Source: Podarcis filfolensis (taxonomy: Eukaryota). Taken from it: DNA of 64,000 nucleotides. The DNA lies in the NCBI GenBank assembly GCA_964270895.1, contig OZ185437.1; one strand, 5' to 3'. Below, piece after piece: positions 46,701 through 52,700 of this stretch. The position numbers are program-made. The number at the start of each line of letters is the position of its first letter. The stretch's first letter is position 1.

Positions 46701-49700
46701 GAAGCTGTACGCCGGCTCCCTCGGCCAATAAAGCGAGATGAGCGCCGCAACCCAAGAGTTGGTCACAACTGGACCTAATGGTCAGGGGTCCCTTTACCTT
46801 TACTTTACACTGGCTGGCAGTGGCTTTCCACAGGGTTTCAGACGGGGGATATTCCTGGCCCCTCCTTGGAGATGCCAGGGATTTAACCTGGGGCTATTTG
46901 CATGAAAGGGAAACCTGTTGAGCTCAAATGTTTGTGTTGCACACCACTTTGCTTCAATAGGGAAGCAGTCTAGAGATCTAAAAGTGGGTGGAAGGATACA
47001 CAAACGGCAATCCGGCATTGTGGAAAGTCACAGCGTCATCTTGTTGTGGAAACTTGAAATATGCTCCAAAGCACATAAGCATAGGAAAGGGCATGTTGTA
47101 ACAGTTATTCCAAAGGAAGAGGAGGCGAATCAGAGTGATGAGCTTGACATCTTTGACAGGCTTGGCTGCTTATACCGTCTGGCCAGAGTGTGGGGCTTTA
47201 CTAAATCTGTGTTTTGCATGCTGGAGAGGAATATATTCAGCTCCGAAAGGATGGAGGACAGAGTGATCCATGAATGTAATACATCAGTGGTGTTGCTTAG
47301 TGCAATTGTCTGGAGGAAGCCCTTGAGGCTGACTACATGGTGTACCTGTCATGCATGAGTCATCATAAATGTGTTCTAATATTATAATGTTGTATGCCCA
47401 GGCATGGAGAACCCTTTTAGAGCCAAAGGCCCCATTACTCCTCTGGAACACTGTCAGGGTTACATTCCAGAACCACAAAGAATCAACAGAGAGAGACAGA
47501 ATCACACATGTTAACCCTTTACTCCACCCAGCCTTTCCATCCTGCTCAGCTGTCTCTTGATTAGACACTTCCAAATCCCTTGAACTATCAATTGTACCAC
47601 ATTAGTTGCCAACACTGGAAGTTAATTCCTATTATATGGTGCTTTATGAATATCTGTTCCATCTTTTCTAGGTATTGTAGGAAAGCTCACTTCTATTTCA
47701 TTGCTATAAGACCAGATCGGATTGTTATTGTTGCTTTAGCTTTTTGCATTTCTGCTGCTTTTTGCCTTGTAGCATTGAATCCAGTTCTCATCCCCTTACT
47801 GATTAGATGTTTTATGTTGTATAGAGGCTGCAACGTTATAGGCTGTGACACAGCAAGCCTTATATGGAGTAGGGCTCGGACAACAATGCAGATTTATGGT
47901 GATGAAGGTAATAGGTTTCTTATTTAGTTAGCATGTATTTTTTTACCTTGCTCATCAGCTGAAAAGCTTGCAGATCAATAAAAAGAAAACAAGATCATCC
48001 CTGGCCTTGGAGTTACGATTTAAAAGGCATGACACAAAAAGAACAAGGGGTTCAGAGGGAGGAAAAAGCAAACTGAGTCACTAGTTCTGAAGTTCTAAGG
48101 ATGACTAATTTAGATGGAAACAGTTCAGGTAGTCTGATGGAACAACTATTGCTAGGTGATAGATGAGGGAGAAAAAGGACCAAAGGCAGCTGGTGACTCA
48201 GCAGAGCCGATGAAATAGCTCTGCTTCTCACCCCTCCCTCTTCTGCAGCCTGATGGAATGGCTGTTAGGGAGCAGGCATTACATATGCAAGGTACTAAGT
48301 TCTATTTGGTGTATTGTAAGCATTCCTGTGCACTAGAAGTTGGGGTTCACCCTATAAAGTCGATTGCCTGTAGGTTCAGGGCAGAGAAGTACTTTTTCTA
48401 CATAGCACATGGTTAGACAAATGATGGAACTCCCTGGCACAAGATATGTTGATGAAGTGCAGCTTAGAGCAAGCAGTAGGCAAGGAGAATAGGCCTATCT
48501 ATCCATCCATAAAGGTAAAGGTAAAGGTACCCCTGCCCGTACGGGCCAGTTGTGTCCGACTCTAGGGTTGTGCGCTCATCTCACTTAAGAGGCCGGGAGC
48601 CAGCGCTGTCCGGAGACAACTTCCGGGTCACATGGCCAGTGTGACGAAGCTGCTCTGGTGAGCCAGCACCAGCGCAGCACACGGAAACGCCGTTTACCTT
48701 CCCGCTATAAAGCGGTACCTATTTATCTACTTGCACTTAGGGGTGCTTTCGAACTGCTAGGTGGGCAGGAGCTGGGACCGAAAGACGGGAGCTCACCCCG
48801 CCGCAGGGATTCGAACCGCCGACCATACGATTGGCAAGTCCTAGGCACTGAGGTTTTACCCACAGCGCCACCCGTGTCCCAAGTTGGGGTTCACCCTATA
48901 AAGTTGATTGCCTGTAGGTTCAGGACAGAGAAGTACTTTTTCTACATAGCACATGGTTAGACAAATGATGGAAATCCCTGGCACAAGATATGTTGATGTA
49001 GTGTAGCTTAGAGCAAGCAGTAGGCAAGGAGAATAGGCCTATCTATCCATCCATAGCTGTTGCCTATTACAGCTAAGGGCGAAGTCTCTCATGTTCAGAG
49101 GTCGTGCATATCTGAGCACAGGGTGTCAAGGACAAGCAGAGAATGACCATCCCTTTAATGCCCTGCTTACAACCCTGCAGAAGTATCTTCCTAGGCTATG
49201 TTGGAGACAGAATGCTGGACTATATGAGCCCTTGGTCTTACCCAGCAAGGCAGTTCTTGTGTTCCCATCCCACGCAAAATGGAATTTGCAGAATGTAGTG
49301 TCCCTCTGAGAATATCAGCTTTCATTTTTTGCGGGGGGGGGGGGGAAGAGAGCAAAATCTTCACTTCACACAGCTGCAGCATTTGATAAGGTATGGACAC
49401 TGTCTGCTGAAGGCTTATGGCATGTCTAAAGCTATTAATATAGCCGAAAACAGTGCACAAGGAATTCTTACAAAACAGTGAAAGAGGTAGTGTGCTTCAG
49501 GGAAAGTTTTCCGTTGAATGAGAACAATTATAGATATCATGGCCCTTCTATGAAAAACTTTCCCTGAGGCACACTGCCTCTTTCACTGTTTTTGCAAGCA
49601 TTCCTTGTGCACTGTTTTCGGCTACATTAGTAGCTTTAGACATGCCATAAGCCTTCAGCAGACAGTGCCCATACCTTATCAAATGCTACAGCTGTGTGAA

Positions 49701-52700
49701 GTGAAAAATTTGCTCTCTTTTTTTTTCCCTTCCAAAAATGAAAACTTATTTATTTTTGAAGACCAGGACTTTTTTTTCCGGCCGGCACTGGCTGGAACTC
49801 AGTTCCAGAACCTCTCAGGTGGGCACAATTGCCATTCTTAAGAGAACGAGGGAGGCGTTCATGGTGAGTTCCTGCACCTCTTTTTTCCGGAAAAATAGCA
49901 CTGATGATGATGATAATTTATATCCTACCTTTCCCTTCCCCCTAACAATATAACATTCTAATGGTAACTTTGTAAAATCAATTTGAAAAATGCAACGAAA
50001 CAGCAACGACAAGATTATCAAAACAAAAATGGACAGGGCATCATATTATAAATTAAGACACTGGAGTTGGCATAATACCATGAAGCTAATTAAAGGGGCC
50101 ATCTTAAGATTTAGTTATTTTTACAGATCAACTGTCGAATAATGAGGAACATTTCAGTTTGGATTAAAATTCTCACACCTGGAACTTTTACTCGCCAAGA
50201 CTTCAGCTTATAGTTGTTCTCTGGAGTCTATGCATGTCAACCAGACATATCCTCAAGTCATTAATAAGCTGCATTCTAAATAGCATATGATACAAAATGC
50301 CCTTTATTTTTTCCCTGTGGTGCTACTTGGTTTCATTGGTGTTGGCATGGCGATATTATCATTTCACCCATATACAGGTCCTATCCTTCTTAGAGGATTG
50401 GAACTCATTTGGCACATAGAAGTAGTTTAAAGCAGACATTGGAATAAAAATCTATGCTTCAAGATTTCGTATCGTGAACTTCCTTCAGCTTTCATGCGAG
50501 AGCAATAAATACAAATTCTGTATTTGGCAAAGAGTTTCGAATGTTTAGGTTGCTTGGTTTTTTTGAAGAGCAGAATACCACTGGCATTTGCTAATTTTTT
50601 TGCAATTTGTTTGCCTGACACTTTCCAGCCAGAGGAAAGTGCCACCAAAATCATTTGGAGTTGCTCCTGCCCTGAAACAGGTCAGTTCTTGATGGTTGTG
50701 CAATACTTTATTGTGGCCCAAAATGTAAGATAATTGCTACAACACTTTAATCCTCCATTGTCACTCATTGCTAGCAGATTCCTGCTATGAAAGCTTTATT
50801 GGGGCTCCGTATCTGTGGCTTCCAGAGCATCCCAGCAGCTGGGGAATGTGGAACTATTTGCTAGGCATTCAAAACATTCCATGAAAGTGAAGGCCTTCTT
50901 GCTGGAAGTCTCATGTGATATGCAAGCTGCTGTTAAGATTTACTGTTCCAGCATCTCCTTTGCTAAGTGCAGATAACTGTGAAAGGGTTTTAGCACTCAT
51001 GTGCAACAATCAATAATGGCAACCTGAACAGGGACCGCAAGTCTGCACGCACCACCTGCAGTGTCTCTGGGAGAGCTGACCATTCCCCACTTCACTCCTG
51101 ATCTTCCTGGGCTGAGTAGCAAAGGCTTAAGGGGGATTCAAAGTGTATTTAGCTAAACACATTTAGAAGGCTCCTCATGTTCAAGACCCCTGATAACTCT
51201 GTGAGGGATCCTGCATGGAGCACACAGGAATATTGGGGTGGGGCTTGGATGCTCAGCCCCCAAACTCTTCTTCAAGTTGCCATTTGGTTTCAGACTTCTG
51301 TGTCTCCACATACAATGCAAGGGATCCTAAGATCGCTGTCTGCTTTTAAGTGCAAGCCTCTATTAACATTAGCAAAACAGCATGACTGTTTGGGAAGCCA
51401 GTGTATAAGAGTGTGTAATGTTTGCTAGCTATTGAAAGCGAAAGCTTATTCATTCCTTTGACTGGCAGTGACTGTGAAATAAAGTTGAAGTGAGCTTTGT
51501 TTATATATGACACGTTGTAGCCAAGTGCAAGTCAGACCCTTTGCTTCTGTTTTTCCTGTTCTACGCAGCCAAAAAACCAACCACACTTCTGATTAATTTG
51601 CCATAATTTTTAAAAAATCATTTTTTCTCTGGGTGCAATTGTATTTGGGTAATGAGAAGTGAGAGAAACTCAGTTTGTGGGAGATATGCCTTGTGAAAGA
51701 GTAATGCTAGAACTGAGATTATCCCAGACACTCTTGGGTGACTGGGACTGTGTGTTCTTGGTCCGGTTCAGCAGGAGCTTTCAGGATCAGGAAACAGAGC
51801 TAGTGATTGTGGCACAGATGGGGTAAAGGTATAGGGACCCCTGACCATTAGGTCCAGTCGTGACCGACTCTGGGGTTGCGACGCTCATCTCACTTTATTG
51901 GCCGAGGGAGCCGGCGTACAGCTTCCGGGTCATGTGGCCAGCATGACAAAGCAGCTTCTGGCGAACCAGAGCAGCGCACGGAAACGCCGTTTACCTTCCC
52001 ACCGCAGCAGTACTTATTTATCTACTTGCACTGGTGTGCTTTCGAACTGCTAGGTTGGCAGGAGCAGGGAATGAGCAAAGGAACTCACCCCGTTGCGGGG
52101 ATTCGAACCACTGACTTTCTAATCGGCAAGTCCTAGGCTCTGTGGTTTAACCCACAGCGCCACCCATGTCCCTTCACAGATGGGGTAGTTTCACATTATT
52201 TACCATAGGTTGGGTGCAGACCAGGTTTCTTGAAATTAATGAATCCTAAATGTTTTATTTAGGGTATCTTAAACAATATGGAGCTTAGTATATGTTGCCT
52301 TCTGAGCCTAGGGAAGCTGAGCTTGGCTTCAAGATAAGGGTTTGCAAGCCTTTTTCATTCAAGTTTGGGGAATGGTGGGGCAGGCTGTCATAGCAGTCTA
52401 GATCATATGGGGGGAGATACCAGAATAAAAACAGGAGAAAAAATGGATATGCCCACCAGAATTGGGTTAGAGGACATATCCAGAATATCTCCTTGAAGAC
52501 TTTGGAGGGAAGGTTCAGAAAAGGGATTGGCAGGAGGCTGGGTAGAAGCAAGAGTAAAACATGGATTGTATCTGCATGTCTGTATATGCTTGTGCGTTTA
52601 CTGGTGCAGTTTTCCAGCCTGAGCATTCAAATCAATGCACACAGAAATATTTTAAAATAACATAAAATTCCATTATAATAGCAGACTGCTAGAACCACTT

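What the first reader, a model, noticed from the sequence alone, without database searches (positions are those of the whole stretch)
49311..49752. ~440-bp near-perfect fold-back in ITPKB intron 2 without MITE hallmarks
Seen: arms 49346-49511 and 49552-49719 are ~93% complementary around a 40-bp spacer. Complementarity continues outward through a G-run facing a T/C-run to about 49311 and 49752. I find no TSD, no recognisable TIR family and no other copy in the window. It starts ~260 bp after the giant-TSD SINE and abuts a hAT MITE at 49764. Inference: the pre-mRNA would form a ~165-bp dsRNA stem (ADAR substrate or endo-siRNA/miRNA source), or the DNA forms a cruciform that attracts insertions.
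Basis: partly seen in the sequence, partly recalled or inferred. Interest (0 to 1): 0.65.

Follow-up and report, generated by a model that had tools for sequence, protein, structure and literature searches.

The report
Intronic fold-back repeat, probably transposon relic
A 436-base stretch inside an intron of a lizard's ITPKB gene reads almost the same forwards and backwards-complemented; it is real, but it looks most like a worn-out copy of a hairpin-shaped jumping gene, which is an ordinary thing to find.

Summary
The fold-back is real. The arms are 49314-49518 and 49546-49749, around a 27-nt non-palindromic spacer. The core is 160 of 173 positions identical (92.5%). RNA folds give -304 kcal/mol (+ strand) and -309 kcal/mol (- strand), with 0 of 100 shuffles as stable.

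It lies about 9.3 kb downstream of the first coding exon of ITPKB, which is on the + strand. That exon is 90% identical to Zootoca vivipara ITPKB, so the window comes from a lacertid lizard, not a human.

The window holds no second copy, no Rfam family reaches its cut-off, and the arms have no coding signal.

The arm differences look neutral: 10 transitions to 3 transversions, with no excess of wobble-compatible changes on the transcribed strand.

The architecture matches long-TIR Tc1/mariner non-autonomous elements described in Anolis. TcMar-N1_AC is 489 bp with 203-bp TIRs and 901 copies (PMC3014272, Table 2). Its terminal sequence is absent from the window.

My best reading is a solitary, aged, long-TIR non-autonomous DNA transposon that incidentally forms intronic dsRNA (0.55). 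The main rival is a local inverted duplication (0.28).

Genome copy number, orthologous sites, RNA editing and small RNAs could not be tested here. Interest is low.

The parts
49314..49518 (.). Left arm of the fold-back
   Evidence: Complementary to 49546-49749. The core 49346-49518 matches at 160 of 173 positions (92.5%); the outer 49314-49345 matches at 19 of 30.
49519..49545 (.). Central 27-nt non-palindromic spacer, which forms the loop
   Evidence: The best symmetry centre is 49532.0. The inner positions are not self-complementary, and the GATATC at 49533-49538 is off-centre.
49546..49749 (.). Right arm of the fold-back
   Evidence: Reverse complement of the left arm.
49333..49345 (+). 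G13 run near the outer end of the left arm
   Evidence: Read from the sequence. It faces the T/C run of the right arm. This accounts for 9 of the 10 outer transitions, which are G.U pairs in + strand RNA. As a homopolymer it is probably not a set of independent events.
49718..49733 (+). T9-CCC-TT-CC run near the outer end of the right arm
   Evidence: Read from the sequence. It is the partner of the G run.
49313..49314 (.). TA dinucleotide at the left edge, a candidate decayed TA target-site duplication
   Evidence: Read. Its mirror position 49749-49750 reads TT, one substitution from TA. This is too little information to test in a single copy.
49747..49748 (.). TA dinucleotide at the right edge, the alternative register for a TA duplication
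   Evidence: Read. Its mirror position 49315-49316 reads TC. An exact-match scan found only AT/AT at 49316/49747.
38286..39992 (+). First coding exon of ITPKB (context: it sets the transcribed strand and the intronic position)
   Evidence: 90% identity to Zootoca vivipara ITPKB (P0001), E = 0. tblastn places residues 1-567 of 866 here and nothing else of the protein in the window.

Best explanation
The fold-back is a solitary, aged copy of a hairpin-shaped (long-TIR) non-autonomous DNA transposon. It is most likely of the Tc1/mariner type and inserted by cut-and-paste into an A/T-rich site of the long ITPKB intron. Inferred steps follow. A transposase supplied in trans recognised the roughly 205-bp terminal inverted repeats. 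Since insertion the two arms have drifted apart neutrally to about 8%, the homopolymer runs near the ends have slipped, and the 2-bp target duplication has lost one base. Today the element has no function of its own. As a by-product, the ITPKB pre-mRNA folds locally into a duplex of about 200 bp. ADAR enzymes are expected to edit that duplex, and it is discarded with the intron. Shown here: the structure, its position and strand context, the neutral-looking mismatch pattern, the absence of coding or known-RNA signal, and the existence of this architecture in another lizard. Inferred: the transposon origin, the superfamily and the RNA fate.
For: The element is 436 bp, with inverted repeats that run to both ends and a short unique loop. 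It has no coding capacity: 0 Pfam families at E up to 10 in 4 arm reading frames. The only hit among 1.84 billion representatives is a spurious poly-proline match to an Ig-repeat protein. The same architecture is documented in a lizard genome. TcMar-N1_AC is 489 bp with 203-bp TIRs, a TA TSD and 901 copies. TcMar-N10_AC is 664 bp with 311-bp TIRs and 287 copies (PMC3014272, Table 2, passages read). At a few hundred copies, a second copy in 64 kb is not expected. The intron is rich in mobile elements. By self-blast of 47000-52000 against the window, one SINE family has about 8 copies. A 140-bp MITE-like repeat has 4 copies. A TA-flanked family has CAGTGGTACC ends. The arm differences fit neutral decay of a real, old sequence: 10 transitions, 3 transversions and 1 indel, K2P 0.080. 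TA dinucleotides sit at both edges, one substitution away from a symmetric TA duplication.
Against: No intact target-site duplication of any canonical length was found; the exact scan found only AT/AT. There is no second copy in the window. The outermost 30 nt are less well matched (19 of 30) than the core (160 of 173), whereas transposon termini are usually the best-kept part of a family. The terminal 20-mer of Anolis TcMar-N1_AC is absent from the window (0 matches at up to 3 mismatches), so this is not that family. The termini do not fit the hAT motif or an 8-bp duplication. The recurrence of the terminal motif AGTTTTCAT at the inner end of the right arm, which could suggest paired transposase-binding sites, is not significant (131 of 2000 shuffles). 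Genome-wide copy number, the decisive feature, could not be measured.
Confidence: 0.55

Rival explanations
1. Local inverted duplication. A replication or repair error (template switching or fold-back priming) copied about 205 bp of unique intron sequence in reverse orientation next to itself, leaving a 27-nt spacer. The result is a one-off palindrome that was never mobile.
For: There is no intact target-site duplication and no other copy in the window. No recognisable terminal motif of hAT or of the Anolis long-TIR Tc1/mariner families is present. The outer ends are poorly matched (19 of 30), which a fuzzy duplication boundary would explain.
Against: Mobile-element insertions are the common source of such structures in a transposon-rich intron. 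The size and the TIR-to-loop proportions match known lizard elements. Both ends stop at mirror-image positions next to TA dinucleotides in A/T-rich sequence. None of this excludes the rival.
Confidence: 0.28
2. Functional long-hairpin RNA locus. Whatever its origin, the stem is maintained because the ITPKB intron transcript yields endogenous siRNAs or a miRNA, or acts as an ADAR-dependent regulator of ITPKB processing.
For: A very stable hairpin is predicted on the transcribed strand (-304 kcal/mol). The G-run pairs with the U/C-run through G.U wobble on the + strand only. Transposon hairpins can become miRNA genes, as with Made1 and mir-548 (PMC1784062, search listing and abstract start only).
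Against: No Rfam family reaches its gathering score in the window; the hits below cut-off are generic hairpin matches. In the core, transitions that keep pairing number 4 on the + strand and 6 on the - strand, so pairing is not favoured on the transcribed strand. The - strand folds slightly better than the + strand. The G/T-run asymmetry is one homopolymer, not independent events. By general knowledge, a 200-bp stem is not a canonical Drosha substrate.
Confidence: 0.04
3. DNA cruciform that attracts insertions. The palindrome extrudes as a cruciform in DNA and has drawn the neighbouring SINE and MITE insertions.
For: The single-strand DNA fold is very stable (-182.7 kcal/mol). A 140-bp repeat starts 14 bp from the right end, and a SINE with a 175-bp flanking duplication ends 259 bp from the left end.
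Against: In my proxy, 745 of 13929 (5.3%) random repeat-free 436-bp intervals of the window also have a dispersed repeat within 50 bp, so the proximity is only marginally unusual and was noticed after the fact. By recalled knowledge, a 27-nt asymmetric spacer and 7.5% arm divergence disfavour extrusion.
Confidence: 0.05
4. Assembly artefact: a fold-back chimeric read was incorporated into the assembly.
For: Palindromic artefacts do occur in long-read assemblies (recalled knowledge).
Against: The arms differ by 13 substitutions with a 10:3 transition bias, plus an indel, and they are separated by a unique 27-nt spacer. An artefactual copy would be near-identical.
Confidence: 0.02

Closest known systems
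TcMar-N1_AC and TcMar-N10_AC, long-TIR non-autonomous Tc1/mariner families of Anolis carolinensis (PMC3014272, Table 2; passages read)
   Same: Both come from lizard genomes and are small and non-coding. The element consists almost wholly of two long inverted repeats: 489 bp with 203-bp TIRs in TcMar-N1_AC, against 436 bp with about 205-bp arms here. The within-family divergence of 7.6% is similar to the arm divergence here (K2P 0.080).
   Different: The published terminal 20-mer (CGAGGGCTATCCAGAAAGTA) is absent from the window. No intact TA duplication is present here. The host family differs (Lacertidae against Dactyloidae). The copy number here is unknown.
Internally deleted IR/DR-type Tc1-like elements (Sleeping Beauty group; PMC5224488, passages read)
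   Same: An element reduced to its two IRs of about 230 bp would look like this fold-back. In that paper such a construct was mobilised at only about 10% of the full-length rate, which would fit a low copy number.
   Different: The defining paired binding sites at the outer and inner ends of each arm are not demonstrated here. The terminal motif recurs at the inner end of the right arm only, and not significantly (131 of 2000 shuffles). The same paper found no such MITEs for Tdr1 in zebrafish.
Made1 / hsa-mir-548 (palindromic mariner MITE turned miRNA gene; PMC1784062, listing and abstract start only)
   Same: It is a palindromic transposon relic whose transcript folds into a hairpin.
   Different: Made1 is about 80 bp, which is miRNA-precursor size. 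This stem is about 200 bp and matches no miRNA family at threshold.
Intronic inverted-repeat dsRNA edited by ADAR, such as inverted Alu pairs (general knowledge; reviews PMC5663115 and PMC9989829 seen as listing and abstract start only)
   Same: It is a long, near-perfect intramolecular duplex in a pre-mRNA intron.
   Different: Here a single element supplies both strands. Editing was not tested.

Membership tests
MITE / non-autonomous class II transposon (generic) | Terminal inverted repeats reaching the ends of a small (<~800 bp) element | tested here: met
   Inverted repeats run from 49314 to 49749, 436 bp in total.
MITE / non-autonomous class II transposon (generic) | No coding capacity | tested here: met
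   0 Pfam families in 4 arm reading frames at E up to 10. The only representative hit is spurious.
MITE / non-autonomous class II transposon (generic) | Target-site duplication flanking the element | tested here: inconclusive
   The exact scan finds only a 2-nt AT/AT. TA/TT or TC/TA lie in mirror register, one substitution from a TA duplication. Two bases carry too little information in a single copy.
MITE / non-autonomous class II transposon (generic) | Multiple dispersed copies in the genome | not testable with these tools
   There are 0 other copies in the 64-kb window, but no eukaryotic DNA collection was available. The prokaryote scan (0 hits) is uninformative. The protein-database proxy for the arm was negative, and so was the same proxy for the neighbouring multi-copy repeat, so the proxy has no power.
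Tc1/mariner, Anolis TcMar-N1_AC / N10_AC | Terminal sequence of the family (published first 20 nt of the TIR) | tested here: not met
   0 matches at up to 3 mismatches anywhere in the window.
Tc1/mariner superfamily | TA target-site duplication | tested here: inconclusive
   TA is present at 49313-49314 and 49747-49748, but not in the same mirror register.
IR/DR subgroup of Tc1-like elements | Direct repeats of the transposase-binding site at the outer and inner ends of each long IR | tested here: inconclusive
   AGTTTTCAT at the outer end recurs with 1 insertion at position 190 of the 217-nt right arm. 131 of 2000 shuffles do as well. The left arm shows nothing at 1 error or fewer.
hAT superfamily | 8-bp target-site duplication and YARNG terminal motif (as given in PMC3014272) | tested here: not met
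   The flanking 8-mers GAGAATAT and ATTTATTT share 3 of 8 positions. The termini CAGCT and AAGTT do not fit YARNG (read; scan).
Known miRNA or other RNA family (Rfam 15) | Score at or above the family's gathering threshold | tested here: not met
   0 matches at gathering in the whole window. The best hit below cut-off is mir-889 at 36.6 bits against 95.
Hairpin-RNA / endo-siRNA locus | Long intramolecular duplex in a transcript | tested here: met
   A stem of about 200 bp is predicted on the + strand, which is the sense strand of ITPKB. That it is transcribed is inferred from its intronic position.
Hairpin-RNA / endo-siRNA locus | 21-23-nt small RNAs mapping to both arms | not testable with these tools
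   No RNA data were available.
ADAR hyper-editing substrate | Clustered A-to-G mismatches in RNA reads | not testable with these tools
   No RNA data were available.

The most novel reading that the evidence does not exclude
The hairpin is a lineage-specific, functionally retained long-hairpin RNA in the ITPKB intron. It would act as a vertebrate somatic source of endogenous siRNAs, or as an ADAR-dependent cis-regulator of ITPKB processing. Under this reading the G.U pairing of the G-run on the transcribed strand would be a trace of RNA-level constraint.
Probability: 0.04. Interest if true: 0.6.

Novelty: new member of a known kind. Interest (0 to 1): 0.15.

Why it matters
It matters little if the main reading holds. 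The element would be one more decayed hairpin-type transposon in a transposon-rich lizard intron, useful mainly for repeat annotation of lacertid genomes. It would also be a predictable ADAR-editing cluster when lizard RNA-seq is analysed. If it proved instead to be a unique inverted duplication, it would be a small example of how palindromes, and possibly proto-MITEs, arise from unique DNA. Only the unlikely functional-hairpin reading would be of wider interest.

Tried and rejected
(1) Second copy in the window. blastn with word size 7 and E up to 10 found only the self hit and the arm-to-arm hit. A 22-nt similarity at 48313-48334 is chance: 8 of 1974 random 237-nt chunks reach its score, and the window holds several hundred such chunks.

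(2) Copy number by proxy. I translated the right-arm reading frame and searched 5.8 billion protein clusters: no candidate. The same search with a frame from the neighbouring repeat, which has 4 copies in the window, was also empty. The proxy therefore has no power and says nothing either way.

(3) Every-protein search with the 101-aa left-arm-plus-flank frame gave one hit (P0121, E 8e-9). It is an Ig/SRCR repeat protein matched only through a C-VK-PPPP stretch encoded by the G-run, so it is spurious.

(4) A 26-nt block identical in both arms, scanned against prokaryote genome contigs, gave 0 hits. That collection holds no lizards, so the result is uninformative.

(5) Empty-site inference from an older repeat in the left flank (49185-49263, related to 31480-31538 and 33862-33937). 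The shared segment ends about 50 nt before the fold-back in all copies, so no inference is possible.

(6) IR/DR-type binding-site repeats: not significant. A 16-nt direct repeat that starts with AAAACAGTG occurs twice per arm, 25-26 nt apart. Its significance was not tested.

(7) Perfect central palindrome: rejected. The spacer is not self-complementary.

(8) Arms derived from the local SINE, the MITE or the Tc1/mariner-like repeats: no similarity.

(9) Two literature searches for lizard or lacertid fold-back elements gave nothing specific in the listings. The useful table came and was read.
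Full report
**Observation**

The region was read directly and scanned for inverted repeats.
- Three collinear arm pairs were found: 49346-49475/49590-49719 (130 nt, 94%), 49472-49518/49546-49592 (47 nt, 89%) and 49314-49336/49727-49749 (23 nt, 78%).
- A gapped alignment of the left half against the reverse complement of the right half joins them into one palindrome, from 49314/49749 inward to about 49520/49544.
- The symmetry centre is 49532.0, and the central 27 nt are not self-complementary.
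- In the core, 160 of 173 aligned positions match, with 10 transitions, 3 transversions and 1 indel column (K2P 0.080). In the outer 30 positions only 19 match.
- Folded as RNA, the 442-nt stretch gives -304.0 kcal/mol on the + strand and -308.7 kcal/mol on the - strand. As DNA it gives -182.7 kcal/mol. In each case 0 of 100 dinucleotide shuffles fold as well, and the z-scores are -28 to -36.

The spacer is about 27 nt rather than 40, and the outer limit is 49314/49749.

**Context**

- The 610-codon open frame at 38202-40034 (+) contains the first coding exon of ITPKB. From its first ATG it is 90% identical to the Zootoca vivipara protein, and squamate ITPKB proteins follow in order of relatedness.
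- The window is therefore from a lacertid lizard and is not human sequence.
- tblastn of that named protein places residues 1-567 of 866 at 38286-39992 and finds no other part in the window.
- The fold-back therefore lies about 9.3 kb into an intron of at least 24 kb, and the + strand is the sense strand.
- I could not check whether this is 'intron 2', because that depends on an upstream non-coding exon.
- Only this one exon was searched.
- The N run at 32047-32188 was left as it is.

**What the element is not**

- It matches no Rfam family at gathering score anywhere in the window. A permissive scan of 48900-50200 returns only generic hairpin matches far below cut-off, the best being mir-889 at 36.6 bits against 95.
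- Four reading frames across the arms match no Pfam family at E up to 10.
- A search of 1.84 billion representative proteins with the 101-aa frame that covers the left arm and its flank gave one hit. It is an Ig/SRCR repeat protein aligned only through a poly-proline stretch encoded by the G-run, so it is spurious.
- The arms are unrelated to the SINE family, to the 140-bp repeat next door and to the TA-flanked CAGTGGTACC family elsewhere in the window.
- It is not an assembly artefact. The arms differ by 13 substitutions with a transition bias, and the spacer is unique.

**Copy number**

- Within the window there is no second copy. A weak 22-nt similarity at 48313-48334 is chance (8 of 1974 random chunks).
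- For comparison, the self-blast of 47000-52000 against the window shows the SINE about 8 times and the neighbouring repeat 4 times. The fold-back is therefore not among the very abundant families.
- Using a recalled lacertid genome size of about 1.5 Gb, a family of 1000 copies would give only about 0.04 further copies per 64-kb window. The result therefore excludes only families of several tens of thousands of copies.
- A proxy search of predicted-protein collections with the arm frame found nothing. The same proxy also failed for the neighbouring multi-copy repeat, so it carries no weight.
- A scan of prokaryote genomes with a 26-nt block was empty, as expected.

**Ends**

- An exhaustive scan for exact flanking direct repeats of 2-12 nt, combined with matching termini, found only AT/AT at 49316/49747.
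- Using the pairing, TA at 49313-49314 mirrors TT at 49749-49750, and TA at 49747-48 mirrors TC at 49315-49316. Either register is one substitution from a symmetric TA duplication.
- Because the arms have diverged by about 8%, such a loss is unremarkable. Equally, two bases prove nothing.
- The hAT signature given in PMC3014272 (an 8-bp duplication and YARNG termini) is not met. The flanking 8-mers share 3 of 8 positions, and the termini read CAGCT and AAGTT.
- The terminal motif AGTTTTCAT recurs with one inserted base at the inner end of the right arm. That placement is reminiscent of the paired binding sites of IR/DR-type Tc1-like elements, but 131 of 2000 shuffles do as well, and the left arm shows no match at one error. 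I treat it as a lead only.

**Comparison with known elements**

- Table 2 of the survey of DNA transposons in Anolis carolinensis (PMC3014272; passages read) lists non-autonomous Tc1/mariner families that are almost entirely inverted repeat. TcMar-N1_AC is 489 bp with 203-bp TIRs, a TA duplication, 901 copies and 7.6% divergence. TcMar-N10_AC is 664 bp with 311-bp TIRs and 287 copies.
- That is the same architecture, size class and age class as the present element, and it occurs in another lizard. The published first 20 nt of their TIR are absent from the window (0 matches at up to 3 mismatches), so this is not a member of those families.
- A study of Sleeping Beauty (PMC5224488; passages read) reports that a construct made almost only of the two 230-bp IRs is mobilised at about 10% of the full-length rate, and that IR/DR elements do not amplify as MITEs. 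If the present element is such an internal-deletion derivative, a low copy number would be expected.
- The supplements of these papers were not seen. They may hold consensus sequences that bear on family assignment.

**Function**

- In the core, transitions that preserve pairing as G.U number 4 on the + strand and 6 on the - strand. The - strand also folds marginally better. Nothing therefore indicates selection for pairing in the ITPKB transcript.
- The one asymmetry is that the G13 run pairs with the U/C run on the + strand only. That is a single homopolymer pair, prone to slippage, and not nine independent events.
- By established knowledge of ADAR enzymes, a near-perfect 200-bp intramolecular duplex in a nuclear pre-mRNA is a substrate for promiscuous A-to-I editing. 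This is the expected by-product and it was not tested.
- A canonical miRNA origin is unlikely for a stem of this length, and no miRNA family matches at threshold.
- The proposal that a DNA cruciform attracted the neighbouring insertions has weak support. In a proxy that uses repeats detectable within the window, 745 of 13929 random repeat-free 436-bp intervals have a dispersed repeat within 50 bp. The fold-back's nearest blast-defined repeat is 46 bp away.

**Verdict**

The feature is real and far beyond chance.
- Most likely (0.55): a solitary, aged copy of a long-TIR, hairpin-shaped non-autonomous DNA transposon, probably Tc1/mariner-like. It is inert and incidentally forms intronic dsRNA.
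- Main rival (0.28): a one-off local inverted duplication.
- A functional hairpin RNA (0.04), a cruciform insertion magnet (0.05) and an assembly artefact (0.02) are unlikely.

It is a new member of a known kind at most, and of low general interest. The decisive tests are a genome-wide search with one arm, the orthologous intron in related lizards, and RNA and small-RNA reads.

Noticed in passing
window 48337-48511 and 48881-49055, flanking 48512-48880: A 175-bp direct duplication (97.1% identical) brackets one copy of the window's SINE family. This is far longer than a normal target-site duplication. It could be a tandem duplication with the SINE at the junction.
   Followed up: partly
window 49764-49903: A 140-bp MITE-like repeat lies 14 bp from the fold-back, with ends CAGGAC... 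and ...CACTG. Three further partial copies are at 9762-9837, 18665-18743 and 30135-30235. The flanking 8-mers TTGAAGAC and ATGATGAT share 5 of 8 positions, so a decayed hAT-type duplication is possible but unproven.
   Followed up: partly
window 25962-26209, 23726-23980, and about 24066 onward: These are copies of a short element with TA-flanked ends reading CAGTGGTACC... Examples are 21-nt TIRs at 95% for 25962-26209 and 25-nt TIRs at 80% for 23726-23980. They look like ordinary Tc1/mariner MITEs and contrast with the fold-back.
   Followed up: partly
window 480-820, 6032-6379, 21660-22018, 24925-25269, 44033-44417, 46471-46806, 48510-48880, 51822-52172: One SINE family occurs about 8 times in 64 kb. 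Copies are 75-79% identical to the 48.5-kb copy, and some pairs reach 92-94%.
   Followed up: no
window 5070-5374: A GC-rich cluster of short inverted repeats, including a spacerless 31-nt-arm palindrome at 5070-5131 (97%). It lies inside a block with long open frames on both strands.
   Followed up: no
window 49185-49263, 31480-31538, 33862-33937: An old 55-78-nt repeat core (72-76% identity) is shared by three loci. It ends about 50 nt before the fold-back.
   Followed up: yes
window 49447-49462 and 49472-49487 (mirrored at 49577-49592 and 49603-49618): A 16-nt direct repeat that begins AAAACAGTG occurs twice in each arm, 25-26 nt apart (81% identity). Its significance was not tested.
   Followed up: no
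window 32047-32188: A 142-base N run, either a gap or masked sequence. It was left untouched.
   Followed up: no
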